Part shown: positions 1 to 17,574 of the stretch, in pieces
Position numbering within the stretch: the stretch's first letter is position 1
How the letters are laid out: every line of letters begins with the position of its first letter
Source of the DNA: an uncultured Pseudomonadota bacterium
Lineage (GTDB): Bacteria; Pseudomonadota; Alphaproteobacteria; JACZXZ01
Length of the DNA stretch: 64,000 nt
Assembly: GCA_963749075.1 (NCBI GenBank)
Contig: CAVVLJ010000020.1
Coordinates: 96,001 to 160,000 of the forward strand
Reading direction: 5' to 3'
The notes under the pieces: generated by a model
The model's input: only the letters and a program-made list of their open reading frames with translations
What the model was told of the DNA's origin: nothing
Database searches by the model: none
Position numbers and translations under genes: made by a program

Positions 1-7
1 CGGGCAT
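1..7 (-). CDS. 5' start of a gene running off the window edge, possibly adenosylhomocysteinase (ahcY) by context
   Basis: ATG at 7..5 preceded by a GAGGAG Shine-Dalgarno on the minus strand. Identity is only inferred from the SahR-like box upstream and the known hprK-manX-npr-ahcY synteny in Alphaproteobacteria. Confidence 0.35.
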
Positions 8-77
8 GGCGGTCTCCTCGGGCGATGGCAACGGCCTTGCCGCCGGCGCCTGCGGGCGCCGGGGCGGCACGCGCGTC

Positions 78-106
78 CTCATAACAGCGCTCCGGTCCCG
101 CGGCAA
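78..106 (-). promoter_or_regulatory. sigma70-type promoter TTGCCG-N17-TATGAG
   Basis: Hexamers read directly on the minus strand with a 17-nt spacer, upstream of the ATG at 7. Confidence 0.45.
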
Positions 107-111
107 GCGAA

Positions 112-131
112 ATATAAAGAAATGTTTATAT
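112..131. promoter_or_regulatory. 20-bp operator palindrome ATATAAA-GAAATG-TTTATAT, SahR (ArsR family)-like box
   Basis: Perfect 7-bp arms in an AT island directly upstream of the -35. Resembles the recalled alphaproteobacterial SahR methionine-cycle operator. Confidence 0.6.
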
Positions 132-180
132 CGTTATGTTTGCGTTTGGCTCTGCGGGCTGGTTGCGCGCCGGGGCGCGC

Positions 181-981
181 TCAGAACACGGGGAGGGGCG
201 GCAGGTCGAGGCCTGTGTACTTCTTGTAAAGCGCCGCGAGCACGCCGTTCTGCGTGTTGAGGAAGATCCAGGTATTGATCCACTGCCTGAGCTCGAAATC
301 GCCGGGCCGCACGATCGGAGCGTAATAGGCCGTCGTCACGTTCAGCTTGGTCTCGATCTTCTTGTCCGGATTGCCGTCCGCCACGGTCTTGCCGGCAAAG
401 GACGTCATCGCGACGGCGTCGACCTGGCCCGAGAGCAGCGCCTGGATGGTGGCGCCGATGTCGTCGAACCAGACGATCTTGGTGCCTTCCGGCGCCATCT
501 TCGGCACGGTCGCCTCCTCGAGCGTAGCGCGGGTGATGCCGATGCGCTTGCCGACGAGATCGGCAGGCGTCTTGATGGCGACGCTCTCTGGCCCGAAGAT
601 GACGATCGAAAGCGCTCCGTCGGGGTTGCAGAACATCACCGCCTTGGCGCGGTCGGCGGTGACCGAGATCGAGGCGATGGTGACGTTGGCGCGGCCGGCC
701 AGGAGGGCCGGGATGCGGCCGGTCGAGGGGACTTGCACGAACTCGAGCTCGGCGCCCATGTCCTTCGCCATCTGGCGGGCGACGGCGACATCCGAGCCGT
801 CGGGCTGGCCGTCCTTGCCGAGCACGCCGAAGGGCGGATTGCCGACATCGATGGCGACGCGGAGCTTCTTCTCCTTGAGGATCCTGTCGAGCGTGCTTTC
901 GGCCTCAGCCGGTTTGGCCGCCAGCATCGCCGGCATGGCGATGAGGAGCGCCAGTACCACCCATCTCAGAGCGACCTTCAT
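181..981 (-). CDS. Polar amino-acid ABC transporter substrate-binding protein (family 3)
   Basis: Signal peptide followed by STLDRIL-KKLRVAID-NPPFG, RIPALLAG and ALLSGQVDA motifs. Confidence 0.9.
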   Translation of the reverse strand: MKVALRWVVLALLIAMPAMLAAKPAEAESTLDRILKEKKLRVAIDVGNPPFGVLGKDGQPDGSDVAVARQMAKDMGAELEFVQVPSTGRIPALLAGRANVTIASISVTADRAKAVMFCNPDGALSIVIFGPESVAIKTPADLVGKRIGITRATLEEATVPKMAPEGTKIVWFDDIGATIQALLSGQVDAVAMTSFAGKTVADGNPDKKIETKLNVTTAYYAPIVRPGDFELRQWINTWIFLNTQNGVLAALYKKYTGLDLPPLPVF

Positions 982-1031
982 GGCATCTACTCCCTCGTTC
1001 AATAGGTTTGTAAGTCGTTGATTCGATGTGA

Positions 1032-1072
1032 TGATAGCGCTTACATTGTAGCAGCTTCTGGGCGCGAGTCAA
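1032..1072 (-). promoter_or_regulatory. Promoter TTGACT-N16-TACAAT with overlapping LacI-family operator TGTAAGCGCTATCA (1032-1045)
   Basis: Near-palindrome with the central AGCGCT typical of LacI/GalR operators, immediately downstream of the -10 of the binding-protein gene. Confidence 0.65.
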
Positions 1073-1164
1073 GCGCCCGCGGCGGCGGGTCGTGTCCTAA
1101 TTTGTCGGTCCCCGTTAAAATAGCAGCGACGACAGAACACATCAGCACCTTGGCAGGAGGACTG

Positions 1165-1845
1165 ATGCCTTGTCCCAAGGATTTCTCTCGCATAAATTCA
1201 ACGGGTCGGGCCTATGCCGGAAGCCAGCGGCAAATCCAGACGTACGTGAACGAAAGAACACACGCGCTCAATTCTGCCGTCGCGCAATCCCTGTCGCGGT
1301 GCGACCTCGATGAGAAAGACATTCATTGGGTGTCGCCCCTGGCGGCGGACACGTACTCGGAATACCGAGACTCGGAATTTCTGGAACGCGTCGGACTTGG
1401 CCTTCTCGCGCCCCGGCTTCTAGAGTTCTGGCCGCGAGGTGGACCGTGCTGGGACGCACTGGCACGGATTGAAGGTGGATGCCTCCTCATAGAGGCAAAG
1501 AGCCATGTGCAGGAGATTTATGGTAGGGGCTGCCGAGCCTCTCCTCGAAGCAAGCAGAAGATTCAGGCAGCATTCCAAGCAACGAAGGCTTGGCTCGGGA
1601 TTTCTCCTGATATTGACTGGACCGGACGGCTCTATCAGTCCGCGAATCGATATGCGAGCCTGTACTTCCTGAGAGAGATTGCGGGGGTTCAAGCGTTTCT
1701 GGTCAACCTGTACTTCGTTGGCGACCCGATTGCACCGACGCCGATGACGAGAGAAGACTGGGATACCGAAATCGGGTGCGTCAATCGAGAACTCGGCATT
1801 GTTCGCGAAGTGCCGTACAGCGCGGCCGTCTTCCTGACGGCGTAA
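1165..1845 (+). CDS. Hypothetical protein with PD-(D/E)XK nuclease-like motif
   Basis: AGGAGG RBS before ATG 1165. Motifs WDAL...LLIEAKSH and a later YQ..NR. Lower GC than the backbone. Confidence 0.65.
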   Translation: MPCPKDFSRINSTGRAYAGSQRQIQTYVNERTHALNSAVAQSLSRCDLDEKDIHWVSPLAADTYSEYRDSEFLERVGLGLLAPRLLEFWPRGGPCWDALARIEGGCLLIEAKSHVQEIYGRGCRASPRSKQKIQAAFQATKAWLGISPDIDWTGRLYQSANRYASLYFLREIAGVQAFLVNLYFVGDPIAPTPMTREDWDTEIGCVNRELGIVREVPYSAAVFLTA

Positions 1846-1953
1846 TGAGCAAGGGCAAAGCACTCCGCTGAGGGACAAGCCGGAGGCAACGTACGCCTCC
1901 AAACGGGACGTCTCGCGCGAGAAGTCCCCATGGAAATGGGTCAGTCGACATGA

Positions 1954-2406
1954 TTATGCGTCTATGGCCTCAGACTCGCGTGTCATCTTCGCACACAGGG
2001 CTTCCATCTTATGGCGTGGGAGCTGGTCAACCAGATATGCCCTGATTAGTGATCCGGCTTCCTTTAAAGACTCTTCGGTTGGAATACATGAAATCGTTAG
2101 GTACTCGATTTCGTCGTCGTACCCTTTCATACCGAAGGTATTCATCCACGCCCTAAATATCAAAGAATCGTCCACTGGCATCACCTGATTGATAAGAATG
2201 CCCTTTCGCAGCCGGCGCGAAACCCGACTGAAAATACCATTGCCGTCGTAAGGTGGTTTGTCGGGAAACCATTCGTTCCATTCAATCTTTGAAGGACCAT
2301 GTACAACAGAATCGAATACGGCATTCCAATGCTTCTGCGCCTTAACATAGTCAGCGTGTTCTGTACGAAAACGAGGAAACATAATACGGGGTTCGGTCTT
2401 CTTCAT
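1954..2406 (-). CDS. Hypothetical protein, candidate immunity/antitoxin
   Basis: 150 aa, low GC, ATGA overlap with the upstream 102-aa ORF. Trp/aromatic-rich with a DGNGIFS motif. Confidence 0.65.
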   Translation of the reverse strand: MKKTEPRIMFPRFRTEHADYVKAQKHWNAVFDSVVHGPSKIEWNEWFPDKPPYDGNGIFSRVSRRLRKGILINQVMPVDDSLIFRAWMNTFGMKGYDDEIEYLTISCIPTEESLKEAGSLIRAYLVDQLPRHKMEALCAKMTRESEAIDA

Positions 2407-2711
2407 GGTACGAAAGCCCGTCCTGCGAAAACTTGGATGTCCACACGTCGGTTATCGCGATCTCCTCTGACCAGACAGGTCTTTGGTCTCACAGGCGCGG
2501 TAACGCCGCCAGCACGCCGACACACGTGTATATAGGTTTCGGCACAATCTATTGCACCAAGTCGTCGATTCAGTTCGTCCGCTGTCAACCGATCGACTAA
2601 GTCATTAAGCATATTTAGGCCCTCGTCTGCAGTAAGGGGCTGATTCCTATCCCACGCCTCCGAATCCTCTACGCCGCCCCCTTGCATTTGGATTCGTCCG
2701 CGATTTTGCAA
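2403..2711 (-). CDS. Small hypothetical protein, candidate stand-alone toxin domain
   Basis: 102 aa with RGRIQMQGGG-E-SEAW...RVDIQVFAG, translationally coupled to the 150-aa ORF. Confidence 0.6.
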   Translation of the reverse strand: MQNRGRIQMQGGGVEDSEAWDRNQPLTADEGLNMLNDLVDRLTADELNRRLGAIDCAETYIHVCRRAGGVTAPVRPKTCLVRGDRDNRRVDIQVFAGRAFVP

Positions 2712-2739
2712 AACCCTTCACCCTTGCCGTGTATCGCCA

Positions 2740-2934
2740 TTATCCCCGGAGCTTTCGCTGTATCTGATTTCGTTCCTCGTAGGGCTGGTGCTCTTCCAGC
2801 AGTTCATCCCGGCGCACACCCAGAAGCCGACAAGTCAAAGAACGAAACCGCTCCATGGGCGCAGCGTCACCACCCGAAATCTCCCGCCTGGCGATTTCAC
2901 GTATCGTCTTGGTCTGATTTGGGCGATGCTTCAT
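2740..2934 (-). CDS. Small helical protein of the type recalled downstream of IS1595 transposases
   Basis: 64 aa with ERFRSLTCRLLGVRRDEL, directly after the transposase remnant. Confidence 0.45.
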   Translation of the reverse strand: MKHRPNQTKTIREIARREISGGDAAPMERFRSLTCRLLGVRRDELLEEHQPYEERNQIQRKLRG

Positions 2935-2940
2935 GTCCGG

Positions 2941-3330
2941 TCAGTCGCTCATAGCTGAGGCGCCGTCCTGGAACCGATGATAGCACGGCAGCGAAACGGG
3001 CGTAATCATCTTCGCTGCGCCCATTGAAACGGAAAACCTGTTCATCGAGGTGCCGTTCTTACAATTGGCGATCATCCAGATCGCCGCGAACCACTTGTCG
3101 AGCCCAACCGGACTGTATTCGAAAACCGTTCCGACCTTCGCTGAGAATCGCCGCTTCTCATGGTTCTCCTGGCATTCCCAAACGCGAGGGATTGGGATGC
3201 AGCGAACGTCGATTCTGTCACAGATCGAGCAGCGCATGCCGCTCGGCCACCGCTAGGCAACGATCGACCGCAGGGATACGTCGGGGTCAGCAACATAGCG
3301 GATCGTCCGGAGGAGGGTTTTGGGGGCATG
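2941..3330 (-). pseudogene. IS1595-family transposase pseudogene (N-terminal zinc ribbon only)
   Basis: One frame reads PKTLLRTIRYVADPD...*RWPSGMRCSICD...WECQENHEKRRFSAKVGTVFEYSPVGLDKWFAAIWMIANCKNG. It has an in-frame stop and the DDE domain is absent. Confidence 0.85.
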
Positions 3331-3439
3331 GTCTACCATCCCCATATCCTAGTGGTGCCCTAACCGTGGACGGTTACGTGGGATTTCGCCGCAGCGCTGC
3401 GCCGCTGCTTGCGCGCGCCGCCTCGTCTCATAGCGCCCG

Positions 3440-4465
3440 CTATGCACGCCGGGACCCGCCAGCGGCGCGCGCCGGTCCGGTCGATTGCCGGATGATGACG
3501 TCGGCCTCGAGCTTGATCTTGCGCGGGCCCGCCCGGCCCGCGATCCAGTCGAGGAGAAAATCGGCGATGCGCGTGCCGATGCGGTCGGCCGGGATGTGGA
3601 CCGTGCTCAGCGGCGGGTCGAGCTCGGCCACGATCTCGAGGTCCGAGAAGCCGGCGACCGAGACATCCTGCGGGACGCGGACGCCGAGCGCGCGGCACTC
3701 GAAGAGCGCGCCGATGGCGAGCGTGTCCGTCGTGCAGCAGATCGCCGTGAGATCGGGATGCTGCGTCAAGAGCGCCCGCGTGGCGCTGCGGCCTGCGACG
3801 ATCGTCTGCGCCACCTCGCGGATTTGCGCGGGCGGGACGGCGATGCCGCGCTCGCCCAAGCAATCGGTGATGCCCTTGAGGCGCGCCGCGATCCTGTCGT
3901 TGAGGCTGGGCGGAGCGGTGACGATGCCGAAGCCGCGGTGGCCGAGCTCGACGAGATGGCGCGTCAGCTCGAAGGACCCGCTGCGATTGTCGAAGCCGAT
4001 GCAGGGATGCGGGTTCTCCCCGTCGAACTGGTAGGTGTTGACATAAGGGAGATTGCGCAAGCGCAGCAGCTCGTAGACCTCCGGCGCATGGCGGTTGCCG
4101 ACCAGTGCCATGCCGTCGACGCCGCGCTCGATGAGGGCACGGACCTGCCGCACCTCCTTCTCCTCGTCGTAGTGGCTGGCGGCGACCAGGAGCTGGTAGC
4201 CGCTCTCCTCGAGGCGCCGCTGCAGCGCCTCGACGCCGACCGCGAAGATGCCGATGCCGAACGTCGGTACGACGTTGCCGATCGTGAAGGAATGGCGCGA
4301 CGCGAGCGCCCGCGCGGCACCGTGGCGGAGATAGTCGAGCTCGCCCATGGCGCTCATGACGCGCTCGCGAACCTCCGGACTCACCTTCGCCGGATGATTG
4401 AGAACGCGCGACACCGACGCCGAGGAGACGCCGGCCCGCCGAGCCACATCGCTGAGAGTAGCCAT
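3440..4465 (-). CDS. LacI-family transcriptional regulator
   Basis: MATLSDVARRAGVSSASVSRVLN helix-turn-helix, AARALAS hinge, and sugar-binding domain VPQDVSVAGFSD. Confidence 0.95.
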   Translation of the reverse strand: MATLSDVARRAGVSSASVSRVLNHPAKVSPEVRERVMSAMGELDYLRHGAARALASRHSFTIGNVVPTFGIGIFAVGVEALQRRLEESGYQLLVAASHYDEEKEVRQVRALIERGVDGMALVGNRHAPEVYELLRLRNLPYVNTYQFDGENPHPCIGFDNRSGSFELTRHLVELGHRGFGIVTAPPSLNDRIAARLKGITDCLGERGIAVPPAQIREVAQTIVAGRSATRALLTQHPDLTAICCTTDTLAIGALFECRALGVRVPQDVSVAGFSDLEIVAELDPPLSTVHIPADRIGTRIADFLLDWIAGRAGPRKIKLEADVIIRQSTGPARAAGGSRRA

Positions 4466-4545
4466 GAGAGGAACCATAATGGCGGGCGGCGGGAATGGCC
4501 AGACGCCTCTCCGGCTGGAGCCTCGCGCCTTGCGCAGCGGCCGCC

Positions 4546-5208
4546 TTACCCCACCCCTTCGAAATCGTCGAGCAGTGCCGCGATGCGGCCTGAATCCCAT
4601 TGCGTCATGATCATCTCGGCGCGCCTCGTCGCCTCGCGCTGGTCGAGCGCTCTGATGCGCTGCTTGATGCGCGGCAGTGCCGCCGTCGGCATCGAGAGGT
4701 CGCGGATGCCGAGGCCCAAGAGGAGCGGGGTATAGCGCGCGTCGCCCGCCATCTCGCCGCAGAGACAGAGCGGGATGCGCGCGCGCAAGGCGGCACCCGC
4801 GGCGAACTGGATGAGGCGGAGGACGGCCGGGTGGAGGGGATTGTAGAGATAGGCGACCTGCTCGTCGCCGCGGTCGATGGCGAGGGTGTACATGGTGAGG
4901 TCGTTGGTGCCGATCGCGAAGAAGTCGGACTCGAGTGCCAGCGCGTCGGCGGCGAGTGCGGCGCCCGGCACCTCGATCATGACGCCGAGCTTGGGCACTT
5001 CGGCCGCCGCCTTGACGCCCTGGCGCTTAAGGCGGGCGTGCAGCTTGTGCAGGATCGCCTTCACCTGGCGCACCTCGCCGAGCGAGGCGATCATGGGGAG
5101 GAGGATGCGCACCTCGCCGTGGGCGCCCGCGCGCAGCATGGCGGCGAGCTGGGCCTCCAAGAGCTCCGGATGCTTGAGCGAGAGGCGGATGGCGCGCAGG
5201 CCGAGCGC
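4546..5208 (-). pseudogene. ptsI: Orphan 3' fragment of ptsI (about 220 codons)
   Basis: Reads ALGLRAIRLSLKHP...LLDDFEGVG*. Identical to the end of the full gene except for the edge codons. Confidence 0.9.
4556..5205. repeat. 650-bp perfect direct repeat, copy 1
   Basis: Line-by-line comparison with 8416-9065 (offset 3860) showed no mismatch. Confidence 0.95.
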
Positions 5209-5366
5209 CGTGCGACCGCGTAGCTGATCTCGATCCGGCGGCACCAAACGACGTCTGCAATGCGGTAGGACCGTTTCGGGTGTATTCGATTTTGTCGCAG
5301 ACTTGTGAAAAAAAAATCTATAGAGGTAGACGCCGGGTCACGAACAATGTCCGTCGGGGGGGGCAA

Positions 5367-8328
5367 ATGGCACCGCCAAGGGCGATTATCGAACTCGTTG
5401 AGCGGTTTCACGAGCAATTCGACAACTACGTTTCGCCCAAATACAACGAGACCCAAGTCCGGCGCGAGTTCATCGATCCTCTCTTTAAAGCGCTTGGGTG
5501 GGATGTTGACAATACCCAGGGCTTCTCCGAAGCGTACAAAGAAGTTGTTCATGAAGAGGCCATAAAAATTGCCGGCGATCATCGGGCTCCCGATTACAGC
5601 TTCCGCATCGGTGGTGGGCGCAAATTCTTTCTAGAAGCGAAGAAACCCGCCGTCAGCATCAATGATGAGTTCGCCCCAGCATATCAGCTTCGTCGCTATG
5701 CATGGTCAGCCAAGCTCCCCCTATCGGTAATAACGAGTTTCCGCGAATTCGCCGTCTATGATTGTCGTGTCAGGCCAGCTAAAATCGATAGGCCGTCTGT
5801 AGCTCGCATCATGTATCTCACGTTCGATGAGTACGGGGCGCGATGGGACGAAATCGCGGGTGTCTTCTCTAAGGAAGCAATTTACAAGGGTGGCTTTGAT
5901 CGCTTTGTCGACTCGAACAAGCTAATCAGGGGCACAGCTGAATTCGATGACGACTTCCTTGCTGAAATCGAATCGTGGCGCGACGTTCTCGCTCGGAACA
6001 TGGCATTGCGAAATCCGCGACTCGCCCAGGAGGAATTAAATTATGCAGTTCAGTCAACCATCGATCGCATCATCTTTCTTCGAATAGGCGAGGATCGAGG
6101 ACTAGAGCCATACAAGCAGCTGCAGAGCATATCGGTAGGCGACCAAGTCTACGGAGCACTCGTAAAACTCTTCAAAAGCGCGGACGAGCGATATAATTCC
6201 GGCTTGTTTCATTTCCGCCCGGAGACGGGTCGTGCAGAAACTCCCGACACGATCACTCCCAGGCTTATCGTCGATGATAGACCGCTCAAAGGGATTATCT
6301 CGGCTCTCTATTATCCGGAGAGCCCGTATGAATTCTCTGTCGTTGGCGCCGACATCCTTGGTCAAGTTTATGAACAATTTCTTGGAAAAATTATACGACT
6401 TACACTCGGACATCGCGCAGTAATCGAGGAGAAGCCAGAAGTCAAGAAGGCTGGAGGTGTATATTATACACCAACATATATAGTAAATTACATTGTTCGA
6501 CAAACCTTGGGTATATGGCTCAAAGGCAAGTCGGTAGCGCAAACAAAGAAATTGCGGATCCTCGATCCGGCATGCGGCTCTGGATCCTTCCTCATCGCTG
6601 CATACCAATATCTATTGGATTGGCATCTCGAACGGTATTCGAGACAGCCGGAAAATCACAGGAGTCTAATCTATCGTGGTGGGCATGGAGAATGGCGCCT
6701 CACGTCCGCCGAGCGCAAGCGTATTCTCACTACGCATATCTTTGGCGTCGACGTAGATCAGCAGGCCGTCGAAGTGACCAAGCTTTCGCTGATGCTGAAG
6801 GTGCTCGAAGGGGAGTCGTCTGACAGCTTGAAAAAGCAATTGGAGATGTTCCACGAACGTGCGCTGCCAGATTTGGGGACGAATATTAAATGTGGCAATT
6901 CGCTAATTGGTCCGGAATTCTATGCCAATGAGCAATTCGACATGCTGGACGACACAAAGAGAGGGAAGGTAAACCTATTCGATTGGGAGGGAGATGGTGG
7001 ATTTAAAGAGACAATGTCCCGCGGCGGGTTCGACGTGATCGTCGGAAATCCTCCCTACGTCAATGCCTGGATCATGTATGAAACCCACCCTGAAATACGT
7101 AATTATATTAATTCCGCGAAGCTCTACCGCTCCGCAGACAGACATTGGGACGCGTACATTTTATTTCTCGAAAAAAGCCTGATGCTTCTTCGATCTTCTG
7201 GATATTTGTCCTTCATCATTCCATTTTCGTACTGCATTCAGAAATACGCTACATTATCACGCAAGATAATAACCGAGGAATGTACGATTTCGAGCATAGC
7301 TGACCTTCGCACCGTGCGTGTTTTCAAAAATGTCCCGGTAATCACAATTATTCCCGTTGTTATCAGGTCAAAACCTTCTCCTCATCATCGAATTCAGATA
7401 CTCGGACCAGGTCACGGAGCAACGGATCGGCACCCTGGCGATATCGCGCTCCGTCACAAAGTCGCGCAAGGGGTGTTCCGAGATGGGATTGAATGCATGT
7501 GGCGCCTCGATTTGCGCCCTACAGCAGTGTCGGCGTGCGATGCAATAGAGGCAGCTAGTATCACGGTGGGTGATATTTCTTGGGTCAATTATGGCGCTCA
7601 GATGTCCAGTAAAAAGAAAAAAGAGTTTGGAAAGGAGTATGTCTTGCGAGACCGTCGGGCATCGAAGACATGCAAAAAGACGATCTCTGGGCGCGACCTG
7701 TACCGGTACAATATCACGTGGAACGGGCAATATGTTGAATGGGCCCTCGCACCAAAAATGTATGGACCGCGAGAGTCGTGGTTTTTTGAGACACCGAAGC
7801 TAATGATTCGAGATATTACCGGCACTCATCGGTTAGAACTGTCGTTGGACGAAAGCAAGCTCTATTGCGATCACACAGTGTTGTGTTGTTTGCGTATCTG
7901 TGATGCCGCTGGCCATCACAGATTTGATGAGCGCGCCGTTAGGCTCTCCGCCGAATACCCGCTTGAGCTTCTGTTAGGTCTTCTTGCGAGCCGGCCGATT
8001 TCCGCCTTTTACTATTGGAAGTTAACGGGCGAAGGAGTTCGGACGGGCGGTGGGTTCCATACATATCCGAACACAATCCGCGCGCTCCCCGTATTTGATG
8101 TCACTCGCGCATCAAGATTCTCAGGAACATCTCGCAAAGAACATCATAACGCTGGTACGACGGATTCTTGACCTTCGACAGGGAGCGAGCACAGCTAGAA
8201 CCCCCCAATCGCGGACAGCACTCGAGCGGCAAATCTCAGCGCTAGATGATCAGATCGATGCCGATGTGTACAAGATTTACAACCTAAATGCTGAGCAAAT
8301 TCGAATGATCAAGGAAGCTACCAAATGA
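5367..8328 (+). CDS. Type IIG (Eco57I-like) single-chain restriction-modification enzyme, frameshifted near 8110
   Basis: N-terminal nuclease ETQVRREFIDP...APDY...FLEAKK, methyltransferase motifs GVYYTP, LDPACGSG and GNPPY, and a TaqI-like recognition region. The typical C-terminal helices (ERQISALDDQIDADVYKIYNL) continue in another frame to 8328. Low GC. Confidence 0.9.
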
Positions 8329-8405
8329 CCCGGTAAAAAAAGTTGAGATGAGTTATTCCCGGAAGCAGATTTCCTCCGTGCTAGCAAAATGGTCCCGGCC
8401 TACTT

Positions 8406-10193
8406 TCACCCGAGTCCTTCGAAATCGTCGAGCAGTGCCGCGATGCGGCCTGAATCCCATTGCGTCATGATCATCTCGGCGCGCCTCGTCGCCTCGCGCT
8501 GGTCGAGCGCTCTGATGCGCTGCTTGATGCGCGGCAGTGCCGCCGTCGGCATCGAGAGGTCGCGGATGCCGAGGCCCAAGAGGAGCGGGGTATAGCGCGC
8601 GTCGCCCGCCATCTCGCCGCAGAGACAGAGCGGGATGCGCGCGCGCAAGGCGGCACCCGCGGCGAACTGGATGAGGCGGAGGACGGCCGGGTGGAGGGGA
8701 TTGTAGAGATAGGCGACCTGCTCGTCGCCGCGGTCGATGGCGAGGGTGTACATGGTGAGGTCGTTGGTGCCGATCGCGAAGAAGTCGGACTCGAGTGCCA
8801 GCGCGTCGGCGGCGAGTGCGGCGCCCGGCACCTCGATCATGACGCCGAGCTTGGGCACTTCGGCCGCCGCCTTGACGCCCTGGCGCTTAAGGCGGGCGTG
8901 CAGCTTGTGCAGGATCGCCTTCACCTGGCGCACCTCGCCGAGCGAGGCGATCATGGGGAGGAGGATGCGCACCTCGCCGTGGGCGCCCGCGCGCAGCATG
9001 GCGGCGAGCTGGGCCTCCAAGAGCTCCGGATGCTTGAGCGAGAGGCGGATGGCGCGCAGGCCGAGTGCGGGGTTGACCGAGGGCCCGACGTGGCCGCCCA
9101 AGGAATAGGCGAGCTTGTCGCCGCCGATGTCGAGGGTGCGCATGGTGACCGGGCGGCCCGCCATGCCCTCGACGAAGGTCCGAAGCGCCTCATACTGCTC
9201 GTCCTCGCCGGGCAGGTCGTCGCGGTTCATGAAGAGGAACTCGGTGCGCAGCAGGCCGATGCCCTCGGCCCCCACCGCAAGGGCATGCTCGAGCTCGCGC
9301 GGCAGCTCGACGTTGACCTGGAGCGTCACGCGCACGCCGTCGCGCGTCACCGCCGCGAGCTTGGAAAGGCGCGCGAGCTTGTGCTCCTCGCGCTGGAAGG
9401 CGCGGCGCTGCGCCTCGTACTTGGCGAGCGTGGCGTCCGAGGGATTGACGATGACGCGCCCGCCGGTGCCGTCGATGACCGCGAGCGTGCCCGGTGCCGT
9501 GCCGACCAGGAGACCGCCCACGCCGAGCACGGCGGGGAGGCCCAACGAGCGCGCCATGATCGCGGTGTGGCTCTCGGCACCGCCGAGCACGGTCGCGAAG
9601 CCGCCGATGCGGTCGGGATCGAGGAGGGCGGTGTCCGCCGGCGTGAGCTCCTCGGCGAGCACGACGCTCCCCACCGGCAGCGCCGAGAAGGCCTGGTAGG
9701 GCCGCTGCATGAGGTTGCGCACCAGCCGCGCCGCCACCTCGCGGATGTCGTCGGCGCGGCTCGCGAGATACTCGTCGCCCATGCCGGCGAAGCCCTTGGC
9801 GATCTCGTGCGTCTCGGCCTGCACCGCCGCCTCGGCGTTGATCCCCTCGCCGGCGATGCGCCCGTCGGCGCCGCGCAGCAGGCGCGAGCCCGCCAGCATC
9901 TGGAGATGGGCGTCGAGGAGGAAGCCGAGCTCCTCGCCGGCCGCCCCTCCGAGCGCCATGGCCTTGAGCTTGAGCTTGTGGAGCTGCTTGCGCGAGCGCT
10001 CGACCGCCTCCTTGAGGCGCGCTCGCTCGCCTGCGAGCTGCTCCGCGGGCACGCGGTACTCGGGCACCTCGAGGGCACCCGCCTCGCGCACATGGGCGGG
10101 TCCGATCGCCACCCCCGGCGCCACGCCGAGGCCATGGAACACGCGTTCGCGACCCTCGCTTCCCCGCCTCGCTGGTGCGCCGCTGCGCGCCAT
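8406..10193 (-). CDS. ptsI: PTS enzyme I (PEP-protein phosphotransferase), no GAF domain
   Basis: GGAESHTAIMAR phospho-His motif, GIGLLRTEFLF, NPALGLRAIR, IGTNDL and CGEMAGD. Confidence 0.95.
   Translation of the reverse strand: MARSGAPARRGSEGRERVFHGLGVAPGVAIGPAHVREAGALEVPEYRVPAEQLAGERARLKEAVERSRKQLHKLKLKAMALGGAAGEELGFLLDAHLQMLAGSRLLRGADGRIAGEGINAEAAVQAETHEIAKGFAGMGDEYLASRADDIREVAARLVRNLMQRPYQAFSALPVGSVVLAEELTPADTALLDPDRIGGFATVLGGAESHTAIMARSLGLPAVLGVGGLLVGTAPGTLAVIDGTGGRVIVNPSDATLAKYEAQRRAFQREEHKLARLSKLAAVTRDGVRVTLQVNVELPRELEHALAVGAEGIGLLRTEFLFMNRDDLPGEDEQYEALRTFVEGMAGRPVTMRTLDIGGDKLAYSLGGHVGPSVNPALGLRAIRLSLKHPELLEAQLAAMLRAGAHGEVRILLPMIASLGEVRQVKAILHKLHARLKRQGVKAAAEVPKLGVMIEVPGAALAADALALESDFFAIGTNDLTMYTLAIDRGDEQVAYLYNPLHPAVLRLIQFAAGAALRARIPLCLCGEMAGDARYTPLLLGLGIRDLSMPTAALPRIKQRIRALDQREATRRAEMIMTQWDSGRIAALLDDFEGLG
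8416..9065. repeat. 650-bp perfect direct repeat, copy 2 (inside intact ptsI)
   Basis: Identical to 4556-5205. Confidence 0.95.
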
Positions 10194-10507
10194 CACTCTT
10201 CGCCGAACTTGCCGTCCACCAAGGCCGCGAGCGCATCGAGCGCCGCGCGCGCCTGCGGCCCCGCGGCGCTCACCTCGATCGCCGTGCCCGGGCCCGCCGC
10301 GAGCATCATCAGCCCCATGATGCTGAGGCCCGAGACCGTCATGTCCTTCTTGGCGACGGTGATCTCGGCGGCGAACGCCTCGGCGCATTTGACGAAGCGC
10401 GCGGCCGCACGGGCGTGGAGCCCGCGCTGGTTCTTGATGACGAGGCTGCGGCTCTCCGCGCCGGCCGCGGGTGCTGCCGGCCGGGCGCCGCTGGCGCTGT
10501 CGTTCAT
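10193..10507 (-). CDS. ptsH: HPr/NPr phosphocarrier
   Basis: NQRGLHARAAARFV (His15) and SIMGLMML (Ser46) motifs. Confidence 0.95.
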   Translation of the reverse strand: MNDSASGARPAAPAAGAESRSLVIKNQRGLHARAAARFVKCAEAFAAEITVAKKDMTVSGLSIMGLMMLAAGPGTAIEVSAAGPQARAALDALAALVDGKFGEE

Positions 10508-10917
10508 CGCTTGTCCTTCTCCTCGGCGAGGAGGGCGGAGGCGACGTTGATGTACTTGCGCCCGGCCTCCTGGGCCGCGGCGACCGCCTGGGGCAGCTTC
10601 TCGCTCTGGCGTACGCTCGCGAGCTTGATGAGCATGGGAAGGTTGACGCCGGCGATGACCTCGACCTTGGCGTTGTCGAGGATGGAGATGGCTAGGTTGG
10701 AGGGCGTGCCGCCGAACATGTCGGTGAGCAGCACGACGCCGGTGCCGTCGTCCACCTGGGCGACCGAGCGCAGGATGTCCTCGCGCCTTTTCTCCATGTC
10801 GTCGTCGGGCCCGATGCAGACGGCGCGGATGCGCTGCTGCGGGCCGACTACGTGCTCGAGCGCCGAGATGAACTCCTGCGCGAGATTGCCGTGGGTCACG
10901 AGCACCATGCCGATCAT
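10504..10917 (-). CDS. manX: PTS EIIA mannose-type component
   Basis: MIGMVLVTHG...LTDMFGGTPSN...GVNLPML. Confidence 0.93.
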   Translation of the reverse strand: MIGMVLVTHGNLAQEFISALEHVVGPQQRIRAVCIGPDDDMEKRREDILRSVAQVDDGTGVVLLTDMFGGTPSNLAISILDNAKVEVIAGVNLPMLIKLASVRQSEKLPQAVAAAQEAGRKYINVASALLAEEKDKR

Positions 10918-11891
10918 TGCGCATCCCTGCTGTTTTGCCCGGGGCCGTTATGCTCTTGGCCGTCCGGCGTCCGCTCCATGTCGCGGTGGATGAGCGTCGC
11001 GCGCGCGCCGAGCGCGCCCAGCCACGCCGCGAGCCGTGAAGCTACCACGACCGAGCGGTGCCGGCCGCCGGTGCAGCCGACCGCGATGGTGAGATAGCTC
11101 TTGCCCTCGCGCTCGTAGCGCTGCAGGAGCGGCTGGAGCCAGCCCTCGAGCCCGGCGAGAAAGCCGGCGAAGCTCGCATCGCGCTCGACGAAGGCCGCGA
11201 CGCGCGGATCCTCGCCCGTAAGCGGGCGCAGCTCCGGCACGTAATGGGGATTGTCGAGGAAGCGCACGTCGATCACGAGGTCGGCCTCGCGCGGCAGCCC
11301 GCCGCGATAGGCGAAGGAGAGCACGGTGACGGCGAGAGCGGAGCCGCGCCCGAGCGCAAAGGAGCCGCCGATCACGCGCTTGAGGTCGCCGAGCTTCATG
11401 GCGGTGGTGTCGATCACCACGTCGGCCCGCTCCCTGAGCAGCACCACCATGGCGCGCTCGCGGCGGATGCCGTCGGAGACCGGGCGGTCGTCGGCGAGCG
11501 GGTGGCGCCGGCGCGTCTCGGTGAAGCGCCGCTGCAGCACCTCGTCGTCGCAATCGACGAAGAGCACGCTCACGGCGGCATGCCGCTCCTTGAGCCGGTC
11601 GATCTCGCGCAGCAGCGGGTCGACGGCGAAATCGCGCGTGCGGATGTCGATGCCGATGGCGAGCGGTCGGGCCAAGCGGTCGCCCGGACGCACGAGCGTG
11701 GCGAGGAGCGAGAGCGGCAGGTTGTCGACGGCCTCGTAGCCGAGATCCTCGAGCGCCTTGAGCGCCGTCGAGCGGCCGGCGCCCGAGAGCCCGGTCACCA
11801 GCACCACGCGCGCGGCCGCGGGCCGAGGTACGGGCGGACTCTTGGCGGATGCTGGGGCTTGCGCATCGGGCGAGGCTGCCGCTCTGCTCAT
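10914..11891 (-). CDS. rapZ: RNase adapter RapZ
   Basis: VTGLSGAGRS, VDNLP, RRFTETRRRHPL, DVRFLDNP and IAVGCTGGRHRSV. Confidence 0.95.
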   Translation of the reverse strand: MSRAAASPDAQAPASAKSPPVPRPAAARVVLVTGLSGAGRSTALKALEDLGYEAVDNLPLSLLATLVRPGDRLARPLAIGIDIRTRDFAVDPLLREIDRLKERHAAVSVLFVDCDDEVLQRRFTETRRRHPLADDRPVSDGIRRERAMVVLLRERADVVIDTTAMKLGDLKRVIGGSFALGRGSALAVTVLSFAYRGGLPREADLVIDVRFLDNPHYVPELRPLTGEDPRVAAFVERDASFAGFLAGLEGWLQPLLQRYEREGKSYLTIAVGCTGGRHRSVVVASRLAAWLGALGARATLIHRDMERTPDGQEHNGPGQNSRDAQ

Positions 11892-12322
11892 GGCGCGGCC
11901 ATTATAGTCCCGCCGAGGCTGCGCACGGCAAGGCGCACTTTGGCCGCCGCCGAGGCCTCGGTGGCGACCAGCCGGACGAGCGGCAGGCGGTGCTCGAGAT
12001 AGCTGCAGAAGCGCTGCTCGGGCAGGCGCTCGACCTCTTCGAGCGGCACCAGATCGACGACGAGGGAAAGCGTCACCTCGGCCAGGGCCGCCACCCTGAT
12101 GATGCCGAGGCCGCGCACCTCGATCTTGCCGGCGATGGGCTTGGGCGAGGAGGCGATGACGGCACCCCCCGCCGCGCGCAGGTTCACCCGGTCGTCGGCG
12201 ACGAGACGGGCGCCGCGGTCGATGAGGCGCAAGGCGAGGTCGGACTTGCCGCGCCCCGACGGCCCGCGCAGCAATACCCCTCGGCCCTCGAGCTCGACGC
12301 AGGATGCGTGAACCTGGATCAT
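11888..12322 (-). CDS. hprK: Short alphaproteobacterial HPr kinase/phosphorylase
   Basis: HASCV...GVLLRGPSGRGKSDLAL...LVADD...IEVRGLGI. Confidence 0.9.
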   Translation of the reverse strand: MIQVHASCVELEGRGVLLRGPSGRGKSDLALRLIDRGARLVADDRVNLRAAGGAVIASSPKPIAGKIEVRGLGIIRVAALAEVTLSLVVDLVPLEEVERLPEQRFCSYLEHRLPLVRLVATEASAAAKVRLAVRSLGGTIMAAP

Positions 12323-12430
12323 CGGCAGCCCCAAGGCGCCTCCAGCATGGTCGGCGCGTTTGCAACCGGCGTGCCTGCAACCGCCAGTGCAACCGCCGGG
12401 CCGGGAGGGTGGCGTCGGCGGTGCCTCCTG

Positions 12431-14173
12431 TCAATGCCGGGGTGAGCCGTTCTCCTGCAGCGCCAGCGGCAGGCCGACGATGAAGCGGGCGCCGGTGACG
12501 CGGCCGGCCTCGTCATGGCGGTTCTCGGCGCGGATGGTGCCGCCGTGGACCTCGACGATCTGCTTGGAGATGGAGAGGCCGAGGCCGGAATGGGTGCCGA
12601 AGCTCTCGCCCCGCGGCCGCTCGCTGTAGAAGCGCTCGAACACCGCCTCGAATTTGCCCTCGGGCAGGCCGGGGCCCTCGTCCTCGACGCGCGTCTCGAC
12701 CATGTCGCCCGCGGCGTGCGCCGAGAGGCTGATGACGCCGCCCGGCGGGCTGAAGGAGATGGCATTCTCGATCAGGTTGCGGAACACCTGCGCGAGCCTG
12801 CCCTCGATGCCGCGCACGACGACATGCTTGGCCTTGAGCGGCGTGAGCCGGAAGTGCACCCCGCGCTCGGCCGGCGAGGCCTCGTAGACCTCGACGAGGG
12901 TGGCAAGGAGGCCGCCGAGCTCGACCGGCTCCGTCGTGGCGCGCGACAGCTCGGCATCGAGGCGCGAGGCGTCGGAAATGTCCGAGATCAGCCGGTTCAA
13001 CCGCCGCACGTCCTCGGCGATGATCGCCATCAGGCGGCGCTGCTGCTCGGGCTCCTTGACGCGCGCCGCGGTCTCCACGGCGCTCTGCAGCGAGGAGAGC
13101 GGGTTCTTGATCTCGTGCGCCACGTCGGCGGCGAAGCGCTCGATGGCGCCCATGCGTTGGCTGAGGAGCTCGGTCATGCGCTTGAGCGCCTGCGAGAGAT
13201 CGCCGATCTCGTCGCCGCGCGCCGCGAAGTCGGGAATCTCGGCGGCACCCAGCTCGCCCGAGCCGATGCGCTCGGCCGCCTGGGCGAGGCGCCGGATCGG
13301 GCGCACGATGGTGCTGCCGAGGTAGATGGAGACGAGGCTCGTGAGGAGGAGTGCGAAGGCGAACGCCTTGAGGATCTCGAGGCGCACCGAGCGCATCGCC
13401 GCGTCGATGGCGGTCGACGACTGGGAGACCATGAGGGCGCCGACCACGCGGCGGTAGCGCTGCACCGGCACCGCGACCGAGAGGATCATGCCCTCGGGGT
13501 CGTTGTCGTAGACGGCGTGCGCCTCGACGCCGGCGAGCGCCTTGGCGGCCTCCGGGTAATCGCTCGCGTGCTGCTCGGGCCGCTCGCGGTAACGCGGCAG
13601 CGCGCCGAGGCCCGGGATGGCGCGCACCAGCCGGTCGTAGGTGCTGTCGAGGAAGTGGCCGATCGGCGACTCGGCGGCCGGCGGCGGCAGCTCCTCGACC
13701 TGGACGGCGCCGCCCGGGCCGGCGAGGTAGCGGCTGTCGGCGATGAGCTCGCCCGACGGGAGGAAGAGCCGCGCGCGCGCGCTCGTCGGCTCGATGAGCC
13801 GGCGCAAGAGAAGGCGGCTCTGCTCGGGCATGAGCGCGAGCGTGTCCTCGCCGTCGCCCACCACGGCACTCTCGCCCAAGGCGCCGGCGAAGATGCGCGC
13901 CTGGGTCATGAGCGATTGGAGCTCCGAGGCGATCAGGCTGCGCTGATACTCGCCGAGATAGGTGACGCCGATGACGAGGATGATGAGGGCCGCGACATTG
14001 AGGAGGAGGATGCGCTGGGTGAGCGGCGAGAGGATGGCGAGGCGCCGGGTGCGCCGGCGCCACAGACGGAAGAGCGCCGGTGCGCTGCGCTGGCGCACGC
14101 GCGCCTCGGCGGCCGGGGCATCGCCGGCCCCGGGCGCTGCCGCGCGCTCCTCGGGACTTGTCTCGACCGCCAT
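12431..14173 (-). CDS. chvG: Sensor histidine kinase ChvG/ExoS
   Basis: SPLTQRILLLN, two TM segments, HAMP, FAADVAHEIKNPL, and FGTHSGLGLSIS. Adjacent to chvI. Confidence 0.93.
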   Translation of the reverse strand: MAVETSPEERAAAPGAGDAPAAEARVRQRSAPALFRLWRRRTRRLAILSPLTQRILLLNVAALIILVIGVTYLGEYQRSLIASELQSLMTQARIFAGALGESAVVGDGEDTLALMPEQSRLLLRRLIEPTSARARLFLPSGELIADSRYLAGPGGAVQVEELPPPAAESPIGHFLDSTYDRLVRAIPGLGALPRYRERPEQHASDYPEAAKALAGVEAHAVYDNDPEGMILSVAVPVQRYRRVVGALMVSQSSTAIDAAMRSVRLEILKAFAFALLLTSLVSIYLGSTIVRPIRRLAQAAERIGSGELGAAEIPDFAARGDEIGDLSQALKRMTELLSQRMGAIERFAADVAHEIKNPLSSLQSAVETAARVKEPEQQRRLMAIIAEDVRRLNRLISDISDASRLDAELSRATTEPVELGGLLATLVEVYEASPAERGVHFRLTPLKAKHVVVRGIEGRLAQVFRNLIENAISFSPPGGVISLSAHAAGDMVETRVEDEGPGLPEGKFEAVFERFYSERPRGESFGTHSGLGLSISKQIVEVHGGTIRAENRHDEAGRVTGARFIVGLPLALQENGSPRH

Positions 14174-14195
14174 CGCGCTTGGCGCCGAGCCTTGC

Positions 14196-14903
14196 TCAGC
14201 TCTCCTTGTAGCGGTAGCCGATGCCATAGAGCGTCTCGATCTGGTTGAAGCCGTCGTCGGCGGCCTTGAGCTTCTTGCGCACGCGCTTGATGTGGCTGTC
14301 GATCGTGCGGTCGTCGACGTAGATGTGCTCGCCATAGGCGGCGTCCATCAGCTGGTCGCGGCTCTTGACGAGGCCCGGCCGCTGGGCGAGCGCCTTCAGG
14401 ATGAGGAACTCGGTGACCGTGAGGTTGACCGCACTGCCCTTCCAGCTGCACAGGTGCCGGCCGGGATCGAGCACGAGCTCGCCGCGCACCACCGTGCCCT
14501 CGCCGTTGCCGCTCTCGCCGGCCCCTTGCGCGAGCTCGCTGCGGCGCAGGAGCGTGCGGATGCGCTCGATGAGGAGGCGCTGGGAGAAAGGCTTGGTGAT
14601 GTAGTCGTCGGCCCCCATGCGCAGGCCCAGCACCTCGTCGACCTCGTCGTCCTTGGAGGTGAGGAAGATGACCGGCATGGCCGTGGTCTTGCGCAGGCGC
14701 GAGAGCAGCTCCATGCCGTCCATGCGTGGCATCTTGATGTCGAGGATGGCGAGATCGACGGGCTGCGCCGAAATCCCGCGCAGCGCCTCGTCGCCGTCGC
14801 TGTAGCTCTTCACGGCAAAGCCCTCCGCTTCGAGCGCCATGGCGACCGAGGCGAGGATGTTGCGGTCGTCGTCGACGAGCGCGATGGTGCGCTTGAGCGG
14901 CAT
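14196..14903 (-). CDS. chvI: Response regulator ChvI
   Basis: [11 protein letters not shown]...[10 protein letters not shown]...[15 protein letters not shown]...[11 protein letters not shown]. Confidence 0.95.
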
Positions 14904-15083
14904 CACGTCCTCTCTTGCGGCCGGGAGGCTCGGGGATTGCCGCGCGGTGGCGCTTGGCTCGTCCCCTCTTGCCCGGATCGTCCGGACATATTGTGTCAAA
15001 GTCGTGGCATTTCCACCACCTCCCGCCGCGCCCTCCGAGAGCGCCCATTGACGGCCGGGACCGCCTGGCCGATTGTCCCTTTC

Positions 15084-15830: not shown

Positions 15831-15963
15831 CCCCCCGGCTCACGGCCGGCTCATGGCCGTTGCGCGGCCGGGGTGCCGCTTGTATCTTCGCCGCCTGCCA
15901 ACGCGAGGGACCGGCAGGGCGCTTGAAGCGGTCCCCGATGCATCGTCAAGTCGGGAGGAAGCC

Positions 15964-17574
<1,611 letters not shown>

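What the first reader, a model, noticed from the sequence alone, without database searches (positions are those of the whole stretch)
4546..9068. Integrase-free 3,860-bp defence cassette: a type IIG RM gene held between two identical 650-bp copies of the ptsI 3' end
Seen: 4556-5205 and 8416-9065 are identical and enclose only a low-GC RM gene, with no integrase, transposase or terminal inverted repeats. The intact ptsI ends in one copy and an orphan copy lies beyond the RM gene. Known: RM genes inserted with long target duplications have been described, for example in Helicobacter pylori, though as I recall with much shorter repeats. Inference: a circle made of the ptsI 3' fragment plus the RM gene entered by a single homologous crossover. 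One RecA event would excise it leaving ptsI functional, or amplify it in tandem. A conserved core-gene tail would then act as a portable attachment site, giving copy-number or on/off control of defence.
Basis: partly seen in the sequence, partly recalled or inferred. Interest (0 to 1): 0.85.

Follow-up and report, generated by a model that had tools for sequence, protein, structure and literature searches.

The report
Restriction gene inserted behind ptsI, 650-bp duplication
A foreign restriction-modification gene sits directly behind a sugar-uptake gene (ptsI) of a soil bacterium, between two identical 650-base copies of that gene's end; this is a large, fresh example of a known integrase-free way for such genes to enter genomes.

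Summary
Bases 4556-5205 and 8416-9065 are identical at 650 of 650 positions and occur only twice in the genome. They enclose 3,210 bp of low-GC DNA whose only convincing gene is a type IIG restriction-modification (RM) enzyme. No integrase, transposase, tRNA or terminal inverted repeats were found.

Three corrections:
- The RM gene has a frameshift about 70 codons before its end.
- The two ptsI ends differ in their last 10 bases. The intact gene's end, next to the foreign DNA, is the one that matches same-genus relatives.
- The ptsI-ahcY gap is variable in relatives. None of the 10 family genomes or 80 more distant ptsI loci has a second ptsI tail.

The structure fits "insertion with long target duplication", described for RM genes with repeats up to 423 bp. 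The excise-and-amplify idea was also proposed there (PMC2853133, sections 13 and 18 read). Notes of this scan report the same kind on other DNA.

That is not proven. No long reads could be laid, so excision, circles and amplification remain untested. I class it as a new member of a known kind, of modest interest.

The parts
1..106 (-). 5' end of ahcY (S-adenosylhomocysteine hydrolase), the conserved neighbour that lies directly beside ptsI in more distant family members
   Evidence: Pfam AdoHcyase E 1e-146 on L251:6587-8107 (-), which equals window ..106. In G007, G006, G010 and G027 homology to this gene lies 24 to about 670 bp from the ptsI stop.
181..1002 (-). Amino-acid ABC transporter solute-binding protein gene (context)
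   Evidence: Pfam SBP_bac_3 E 2e-27; NCBIfam hits. It lies next to the lacI-type gene in G004.
1005..3440 (.). Second low-GC islet with small ORFs of no known family (context, not part of the cassette)
   Evidence: GC 0.47-0.58. Absent between the lacI and SBP homologues of G004. No Pfam, NCBIfam or PADLOC hit; one weak PHROG hit.
3440..4466 (-). LacI-family regulator gene; its native upstream region reaches about 4502-4506
   Evidence: Pfam LacI + Peripla_BP. 82% DNA identity to G004 and G002 up to window 4502/4506.
4507..4555 (.). 49 nt of unknown origin (GC about 0.71), including tail t2 (4546-4555: last three codons, G-V-G, plus TAA stop) of the orphan ptsI fragment
   Evidence: No homology in relatives or elsewhere in the genome. 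Sequence, translation. Matches same-genus tails at only 6-7 of 13.
4556..5205 (-). Left copy of the 650-bp repeat: orphan ptsI 3' fragment (PEP-binding domain, profile positions 105-291 of 293)
   Evidence: No ptsI similarity beyond 5205.
5206..5366 (.). Left end of the insert: 74 nt of GC-rich DNA of unknown origin (5206-5279, GC 0.65), then the RM upstream region with A9 (5308-5316) and G8 (5356-5363) runs
5367..8171 (+). Type IIG RM gene, main frame (935 codons from the ATG at 5367; the mechanical ORF starts at GTG 5280). PD..EAK nuclease-like motif and NPPY methyltransferase motif present
   Evidence: Homologues align from 5361-5373.
8050..8328 (+). C-terminal about 70 codons of the RM gene, in another frame (frameshift between about 8100 and 8140)
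   Evidence: 6 of 7 full-length homologues give a second tblastn segment in frame 1 at 8044/8143-8313/8325, while the body is in frame 3. Frame translations.
8329..8402 (.). Low-GC spacer (GC 0.49), right end of the foreign DNA
8403..8415 (-). Tail t1: last three codons (G-L-G), TGA stop and 3 nt after it of the intact ptsI. Orthologous to the ptsI ends of same-genus relatives
   Evidence: 10-11 of 13 identical to G003, G005 and G001. BLAST alignments of these relatives run to 8403.
8416..9065 (-). Right copy of the 650-bp repeat, inside the intact ptsI
8406..10136 (-). Intact ptsI (enzyme I of the PTS), last gene of the chvG - rapZ/hprK-like - EIIA(Man) - HPr - ptsI row
   Evidence: Pfam, three PEP-utilising domains. 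NCBIfam PTS_I_fam E 9e-149, from residue 85 of the 660-aa ORF 8406-10388.

Best explanation
This is a real, recent, integrase-free insertion. A horizontally acquired type IIG RM gene (3.2 kb, about 50% GC in a 69% GC genome) sits 3 nt behind the stop codon of ptsI, in a gap (ptsI-ahcY) that is rearranged in several relatives. It is bracketed by a 650-bp duplication of the ptsI 3' region. It belongs to the known class 'insertion with long target duplication'. My favoured route is that the incoming DNA already carried a ptsI 3' part, from a conspecific or very close donor in which the RM gene lay behind ptsI. That DNA entered by RecA-type homologous recombination in ptsI: either a single crossover of a circularised fragment, or homology at one end plus an illegitimate join at 5205/5206. 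This leaves an intact ptsI ending in the donor-side tail t1, and an orphan 3' fragment ending in the resident tail t2 next to lacI. Shown: the repeat, the foreign gene, the absence of mobility genes, the single-copy state in relatives, and the orthology of t1. Inferred: the recombination route, the recency (from 100% identity), and that the copies could recombine to delete or amplify the 3,860-bp unit.
For: Repeat: 650 of 650 identical, two copies only. Foreign origin: GC 0.498 against 0.697; the RM gene was not found in the 10 other genomes of the order; its best relatives share 44-66% amino-acid identity and are scattered over many phyla and archaea. No integrase or transposase family, tRNA, Rfam hit or terminal inverted repeats. 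Relatives carry one ptsI tail each, 10 of 10 family genomes. The neighbours behind ptsI vary: ahcY directly in G007, G006, G010 and G027; a radical-SAM gene then ahcY in G001; a FUSC transporter in G003, G005 and G002; trpF/trpB in G009. Tail t1, next to the foreign DNA, matches same-genus ptsI ends at 11, 10 and 10 of 13 nt; t2 matches at 6, 7 and 6 of 13. A target duplication limited to the 650 bp would place t1 inside the insert and would not predict that match. Assembly quality: the assembly runs through repeats of 830 bp to 5.7 kb, and only 2 of its 47 listed repeat pairs (300 bp or more, 98% or more) are local direct repeats. In run X1, short-read contigs end or begin exactly at 4556 and at 9065, and one contig bridges t2 into the repeat. 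One repeat contig has depth 15.1 against 7.5 in the left flank.
Against: No single read spanning repeat-RM-repeat could be examined. Contigs cannot tell the integrated form from an empty site plus a circle or tandem form. A second repeat contig (8826-9065) has depth only 6.0, so the two-fold depth is not consistent. The favoured route needs a donor whose 650 bp were identical to the recipient's although the adjoining 10 nt differ at 4 positions. That requires either a conspecific donor with a rearranged ptsI end or later gene conversion. More distant relatives do not separate t1 from t2 (t1 6-8 of 13, t2 5-8 of 13). No donor, empty-site genome of the same species or second instance was found. 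lacI is not next to ptsI in any relative searched, so the 'resident' arrangement ptsI-t2-lacI is itself only inferred.
Confidence: 0.55

Rival explanations
1. Insertion with long target duplication in the strict sense. Foreign DNA without ptsI homology was joined by illegitimate recombination or double-strand-break repair just behind the native ptsI (t1 native), and the process itself duplicated about 663 bp of target. A later rearrangement at this variable site (arrival of the lacI block, or a deletion) replaced the last 13 nt of the left copy with t2.
For: The intact ptsI is genus-like to 3 nt past its stop. Both repeat ends are sharp, with no residual homology beyond them. lacI is not next to ptsI in any relative, so a separate rearrangement on that side is plausible. 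The class is documented for all RM types, including IIG, with repeats up to 417/423 bp (PMC2853133, section 13).
Against: It needs two events, yet the copies remain 100% identical. It treats the in-frame stop of t2 at exactly the same codon position as chance (about 1 in 20, my estimate). The mechanism of the class is unknown. Ku, needed for one possible end-joining route, was not found in this 96%-complete genome.
Confidence: 0.27
2. Assembly artefact or unresolved mixture. The sample holds an empty-site chromosome (ptsI-repeat-t2-lacI) together with a separate molecule or strain carrying RM joined to a ptsI fragment (a circle, tandem array or other context), and the assembler threaded them into one path.
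For: The genome is a metagenome-assembled one with 5.15% estimated contamination. Two contigs overlap by 9.15 kb at 99.6%. All four junctions would exist in both scenarios, and short contigs cannot separate them. In runs X2 and X3, contigs run through the t2/repeat border without a break.
Against: The assembly resolves many longer repeats, which implies reads far longer than 650 bp. The junction at 5205/5206 joins RM-side DNA to an internal ptsI position with no shared sequence, so it must exist in real molecules and cannot come from an overlap mis-join. Both flanks have host-like GC and 80-84% identity to the same genus. X2 and X3 cover the region at only 2-4x.
Confidence: 0.1
3. Remnant of a site-specific integrative island that targeted the ptsI 3' end and has since lost its integrase. 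The 650-bp repeat would be an unusually long att duplication.
For: Integrative elements often carry a copy of the 3' end of their target gene. A second low-GC islet (1005-3440) with unknown ORFs lies 1.1 kb from the left repeat.
Against: No integrase, excisionase or phage family hit was found in 1-14,000, apart from one weak PHROG of unknown function. The repeat is about ten times longer than usual att cores, as recalled. The 650 bp end sharply 10 nt before the stop, whereas an att duplication would be expected to include the gene end.
Confidence: 0.04

Closest known systems
Insertion with long target duplication of RM gene units (Nobusato et al. 2000, cited as ref. 37 and not read; Furuta, Abe & Kobayashi 2010, PMC2853133: abstract, passages, sections 13 and 18 read)
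   Same: An RM gene with no mobility gene, flanked by long direct repeats that are a single-copy target in relatives. The insert is under 20 kb. Type IIG cases are listed. The authors propose amplification through the repeats followed by release.
   Different: The repeat here is longer (650 bp against at most 423 bp in their Table 3, which only examined 1 kb of flank) and perfectly identical. The tail next to the insert is itself a ptsI end, which points to homology carried on the incoming DNA. No conspecific empty site is available.
Campbell-type single-crossover integration of a circular DNA carrying chromosomal homology (textbook; recalled)
   Same: It predicts exactly this topology: an intact gene ending in the incoming copy's tail, then the cargo, then a truncated fragment ending in the resident tail. 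It is reversible by one RecA event.
   Different: No circle, replication or transfer function was seen. The circle-closing joint (5205/5206) would have to arise by illegitimate recombination. Nothing here shows the event happened this way.
Homology-facilitated illegitimate recombination (PMC3240628, abstract seen in a search listing only) and transformation-triggered merodiploidy (Johnston et al. 2013, PMC3784515, abstract read)
   Same: Foreign DNA is integrated using homology on one side only. Duplications bordered by repeats arise through interchromatid pairing of a partly repeated donor fragment.
   Different: These processes were described in naturally transformable species, and the merodiploid duplications span 100-900 kb. 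Competence of this organism is unknown.
Type IIG RM enzymes of the Eco57I/MmeI-like group (PADLOC PDLC03604, Pfam PF07669, PF20473, PF12950)
   Same: One polypeptide with an N-terminal nuclease domain, a gamma-class N6-adenine methyltransferase domain (NPPY) and a TaqI_C-type specificity domain.
   Different: At most 44-66% identity to the 80 relatives fetched. The C-terminal about 70 codons are out of frame. Specificity and activity are unknown.

Membership tests
Insertion with long target duplication (criteria of Furuta et al. 2010, PMC2853133) | The inserted sequence contains both restriction and modification functions | tested here: met
   A single type IIG gene with nuclease, methyltransferase and specificity domains, although it is frameshifted near the 3' end.
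Insertion with long target duplication (criteria of Furuta et al. 2010, PMC2853133) | Insert shorter than 20 kb and flanking direct repeat longer than 30 bp | tested here: met
   The insert is 3,210 bp (5206-8415). The repeat is 650 bp, 650 of 650 identical.
Insertion with long target duplication (criteria of Furuta et al. 2010, PMC2853133) | No mobility-related gene in or beside the unit, and the repeat is not a multicopy element | tested here: met
   No integrase, transposase or phage family among the ORFs of 1-14,000 that were scanned. Two copies in the genome.
Insertion with long target duplication (criteria of Furuta et al. 2010, PMC2853133) | An empty site exists in another genome, with the repeated sequence present once and both flanks aligned | tested here: inconclusive
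   The repeat is single-copy in 10 of 10 family genomes and the right flank (ptsI) aligns. The left flank (lacI) is on other contigs or absent, and the DNA behind ptsI differs among relatives. No conspecific genome was available.
Campbell-type (single homologous crossover) integrant | The gene end adjoining the cargo derives from the incoming copy and is a genuine end of the same gene | tested here: met
   t1 matches same-genus ptsI ends at 10-11 of 13, against 6-7 of 13 for t2. This is also compatible with t1 simply being native.
Campbell-type (single homologous crossover) integrant | The circular or empty-site forms are detectable, or a donor has the same cargo behind the same gene | not testable with these tools
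   Only short contigs could be laid. No donor was found.
Type IIG restriction-modification enzyme | Fused nuclease + gamma-class MTase + specificity domain in one polypeptide | tested here: met
   Pfam HSDR_N 54-165, Eco57I 486-682, N6_Mtase, MmeI_Mtase and TaqI_C 800-917. PADLOC E 6.1e-181. NPPY at residue 561 and a PD..EAK-like motif from residue 71.
Type IIG restriction-modification enzyme | Uninterrupted reading frame through the conserved C-terminus | tested here: not met
   The C-terminal segment lies in another frame for 6 of 7 homologues compared. No insertion or deletion relative to the window was reported in the contigs laid, but cover of the exact site was not displayed.
Site-specific integrative island / prophage | Tyrosine or serine recombinase gene and a short att core at both ends | tested here: not met
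   No recombinase family hit. The repeat is 650 bp of coding sequence.
IS / composite transposon | Transposase and terminal inverted repeats with a short target duplication | tested here: not met
   No transposase hit. None of the 16 listed inverted pairs joins the insert ends.

The most novel reading that the evidence does not exclude
The 3,860-bp unit (650 bp of ptsI 3' end + RM gene) is a live, integrase-free mobile element. It would loop out by RecA recombination, persist or travel as a circle or tandem array, and re-enter conspecific chromosomes by homologous recombination with ptsI. A housekeeping gene's tail would then serve as its attachment site, and defence could be switched on, off or amplified at population level.
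Probability: 0.1. Interest if true: 0.6.

Novelty: new member of a known kind. Interest (0 to 1): 0.3.

Why it matters
How single defence genes move without any recombinase of their own is still mechanistically unexplained. This case is unusually clean: the duplication is 650 bp with perfect identity, the cargo is a single gene, and two distinguishable gene tails mark which copy came with the cargo. If long reads of the source sample or conspecific strains become available, it offers a direct test of homology-driven (Campbell-like) entry against break-repair duplication. It would also allow loop-out or amplification to be caught in a natural population. As it stands, it adds one more, larger example to a class described since 2000 and found repeatedly by this scan.

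Tried and rejected
1. I scanned metagenome contigs and genome contigs for a 20-mer at the repeat's tail end, hoping to find conspecific empty or filled sites. This gave 35 and 31 loci. On BLAST against window 1-16,000, only 1 of 66 loci gave any hit (48 nt, E 5.5e-6) and none was a ptsI relative.

2. Public runs: 4 runs of one study, all kept as contigs. Laying them cannot show linkage across 650 bp. Depths were inconsistent (15.1 and 6.0 for two pieces of the repeat; flanks 3.6-10.2). No joint for an empty site or a circle was listed. I draw no conclusion on excision or copy number. X1 may be the source sample and is not independent.

3. Donor search. The insert and the 1005-3440 islet have no match in the plasmid collection. 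RM relatives reach at most 66% amino-acid identity.

4. Homology of the 74-nt GC-rich piece 5206-5279, of 4507-4555 and of the spacer 8329-8415 to the own genome or to relatives: none beyond 11-15-nt chance words, apart from the lacI upstream 32 nt.

5. ptsI similarity in the orphan copy beyond 5205: none at protein level.

6. End-joining capture. The Ku family PF02735 was not found in G000 (96.3% complete), so I gave this route little weight.

7. Promoter and terminator scan of 4400-9200: counts at or below the shuffled expectation.

8. A regex script to extract tails failed and was replaced by counting on the alignment.

9. One of 8 homologue ORFs (L078) was extracted wrongly (62 aa) and gave no tblastn hit, so the frameshift comparison rests on 7.

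10. G002 and G004 (same genus) were not included in the tail alignment.

11. The local 781-bp repeat on contig C16 was inspected by ORF list only. It looks like tandem paralogues and was not pursued.
Full report
**Observation.** I compared the window with itself at an offset of 3,860 bases. There is one unbroken identical run, 4556-5205 = 8416-9065 (650 of 650), and identity falls to background immediately on both sides (one search found the same spacing). The window is G000:C20:96001-160000, in a 5.49-Mb, 23-contig assembly with 96.3% completeness and 5.15% contamination. In the whole assembly the 650-mer has only these two full copies, plus three weak partial matches of 44-131 nt at 71-82%. 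GC is 0.43-0.54 between the copies and 0.67-0.74 outside them. The RM region is 0.498 GC and the repeat 0.697.

**Genes.** All genes below are on the minus strand unless stated.
- A ChvG-like sensor kinase, a RapZ-domain protein, EIIA(Man) and HPr precede ptsI.
- ptsI runs from 8406 to about 10136. It has three PEP-utilising domains and matches NCBIfam PTS_I_fam at E 9e-149.
- Beyond the ptsI stop lies the type IIG RM gene, on the plus strand. Its mechanical ORF is 5280-8171. The likely ATG is at 5367, which is where homologues begin to align.
- Then comes an orphan ptsI fragment at 4546-5205, matching the PEP-binding domain at profile positions 105-291 of 293.
- Then a LacI-family regulator at 3440-4466, a low-GC islet at 1005-3440 with no family hits, a solute-binding protein gene at 181-1002, and the 5' end of ahcY up to base 106.
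- The RM protein has HSDR_N, Eco57I/N6_Mtase/MmeI_Mtase and TaqI_C domains and matches PADLOC REase_MTase_IIG at E 6.1e-181. It has an NPPY motif and a PD..EAK-like motif.
- No integrase, transposase or phage family, tRNA or Rfam family was found. None of the 16 listed inverted pairs joins the insert ends.

- The RM frame is broken. Of 7 full-length homologues compared by tblastn, all align in frame 3 from about 5361-5373. Six give a second segment in frame 1 at 8044/8143-8313/8325. The frame-1 translation carries the family's conserved C-terminal stretch, whereas the main frame stops at 8171. The contigs laid reported no insertion or deletion, but cover of the exact site was not displayed.
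- The two ptsI ends differ just outside the repeat. The intact gene ends ...DDFEGLG-TGA and the orphan ends ...DDFEGVG-TAA, with 4 differences in 10 nt.
- In an alignment with nine relatives, the 13 nt after the repeat in the intact gene (t1, 8403-8415) match the three same-genus genomes at 11, 10 and 10 of 13. The orphan's 13 nt (t2) match at 6, 7 and 6. More distant relatives do not discriminate.
- The orphan copy shows no ptsI similarity beyond 5205.
- The 74 GC-rich nucleotides at 5206-5279 and the 49 nt at 4507-4555 have no detectable relatives.

**Surroundings in relatives.** Each of the 10 other genomes of the family, which is also the whole order as held, has one ptsI tail and none has a second. 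The RM gene was not found in any of them at E 1e-30 or better. What follows ptsI varies:
- ahcY directly in G007 (24 bp), G006, G010 and G027;
- a radical-SAM gene and then ahcY in G001;
- a FUSC-type transporter in G003, G005 and G002;
- trpF/trpB in G009.

The lacI homologue (82% identity) is on other contigs in G004 and G002, and in G004 it lies next to the solute-binding protein gene without the 1005-3440 islet. So the ptsI-ahcY gap is a rearrangement-prone site. Here it holds 8.3 kb, but the cargo in relatives is ordinary and is not flanked by ptsI duplications. Among 80 more distant ptsI loci (54-67% amino-acid identity, up to 10 kb of flank), self-BLAST found no second copy of the ptsI 3' end. 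RM relatives are widespread but distant, at 44-66% identity in the 80 loci kept of 459 confirmed, across many phyla and archaea. The insert has no match among plasmids.

**Is the structure real?** No long reads were available. Four runs of one study hold parts of the region, all as contigs. In run X1:
- one contig covers 3983-4585, so it bridges t2 into the repeat by 30 nt;
- one begins exactly at 4556, with depth 15.1 against 7.5 for the left flank;
- one ends exactly at 9065, but at depth 6.0.

The breaks at the repeat borders show that each border has two contexts in that sample. The depths are too uneven to count copies. Short contigs cannot distinguish the integrated form from an empty site plus a circle.

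Indirect support for the assembly comes from three points:
- The assembly runs through repeats of 0.83 to 5.7 kb at 99.0-99.9% identity, so its reads must be much longer than 650 bp.
- Local direct repeats are rare: 2 of the 47 listed pairs.
- The joint at 5205/5206 links RM-side DNA to an internal ptsI position with no shared sequence, which an overlap mis-join cannot create.

I put an artefact or unresolved mixture at about 0.1.

**How it most likely arose.** The anatomy is the one a single homologous crossover gives. Reading in the ptsI direction, it runs: ptsI 5' part, repeat, t1, spacer, RM, 74-nt piece, repeat, t2, lacI. Because t1 is a genuine genus-type ptsI end lying against the foreign DNA, the RM gene was probably already linked to a ptsI end when it arrived. 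The likely source is a conspecific or very close donor in which it sat behind ptsI. Entry would then use homology in ptsI, with the joint at 5205/5206 made illegitimately.

It has a cost. The donor's 650 bp must have been identical to the recipient's although the next 10 nt differ at 4 positions. That implies either a conspecific donor with a rearranged gene end or later gene conversion.

The main rival (about 0.27) has the foreign DNA joined 3 nt behind a native t1, with a target duplication made by the insertion process itself. A later rearrangement then gave the left copy its t2 end. An end-joining route gets little weight because Ku was not found. A decayed integrase island is unlikely (about 0.04).

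**Comparison with what is known.** Furuta, Abe and Kobayashi (PMC2853133) defined "insertion with long target duplication" for RM units. Their criteria were R and M functions present, an insert under 20 kb, a repeat over 30 bp, no mobility genes and a low-copy repeat. They listed cases for all RM types, including IIG, with repeats up to 417/423 and 384/412 bp, and they examined only 1 kb of flank (section 13). They also state that RM units flanked by long direct repeats amplify themselves, and they propose a cycle of insertion, amplification and release, with experimental evidence only for amplification (section 18).

The present case meets every criterion I could test. The exception is the conspecific empty site, which is inconclusive. 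The case differs in repeat length, in perfect identity and in the informative tails.

Notes of this scan report the same class on other DNA, including duplications of about 400 and over 600 bases. I did not test those notes.

Related routes are homology-facilitated illegitimate recombination (PMC3240628, abstract in a search listing only) and transformation-triggered merodiploidy (PMC3784515, abstract read).

**Verdict.** This is a new, large and fresh member of a known kind, and I score interest at 0.3. The most novel reading still open is that the 3,860-bp unit is an active RecA-dependent shuttle among conspecific strains. I rate that at about 0.1.

Noticed in passing
window 1005-3440: A second low-GC islet (GC 0.47-0.58) with ORFs 1018-1845 (+), 1954-2406 (-), 2403-2711 (-) and 2941-3237 (-). 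None hits Pfam, NCBIfam or PADLOC; one has a weak PHROG hit of unknown function. The islet is absent between the lacI and SBP homologues of G004, so it is a separate insertion 1.1 kb from the orphan ptsI copy.
   Followed up: partly
window 5308-5316 and 5356-5363: An A9 run and a G8 run lie just upstream of the likely RM start codon (ATG 5367). Homopolymers of this kind could make expression phase-variable. Length variation among reads was not examined.
   Followed up: no
window 8100-8140: A frameshift puts the conserved C-terminal about 70 codons of the RM gene in another frame. It could be a true mutation (decaying or attenuated RM) or a consensus error.
   Followed up: partly
ptsI-ahcY gap in relatives (L244-L250, L007-L017): The gene row chvG-rapZ-EIIA-HPr-ptsI is conserved, but what follows ptsI differs. 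ahcY follows directly in four genomes, a radical-SAM gene in G001, a FUSC transporter in G003, G005 and G002, and trpF/trpB in G009. This is a rearrangement-prone junction.
   Followed up: partly
G000 C14:56379-65532 and C5:1-9153: A 9.15-kb overlap at 99.6% between a contig end and a contig start. It is probably an unmerged join or a second haplotype, which is relevant to the 5% contamination estimate.
   Followed up: no
G000 C16:176844-177624 and 178538-179318 (L253): The only other local long direct repeat in the assembly: 781 bp at 99.1%, 1,694 bp apart. From the ORF list it looks like tandem paralogous genes, not an insertion.
   Followed up: partly
G000, e.g. C16:1369435-1370272, C17:689808-690641, C21:513282-514117, C22:72399-73247 and 90931-91781, C23:70946-71780: An element of about 830 bp present in at least six full-length copies at 99.0-99.8% identity, plus partial copies. 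It is IS-like but was not annotated. None lies near the ptsI cassette.
   Followed up: no
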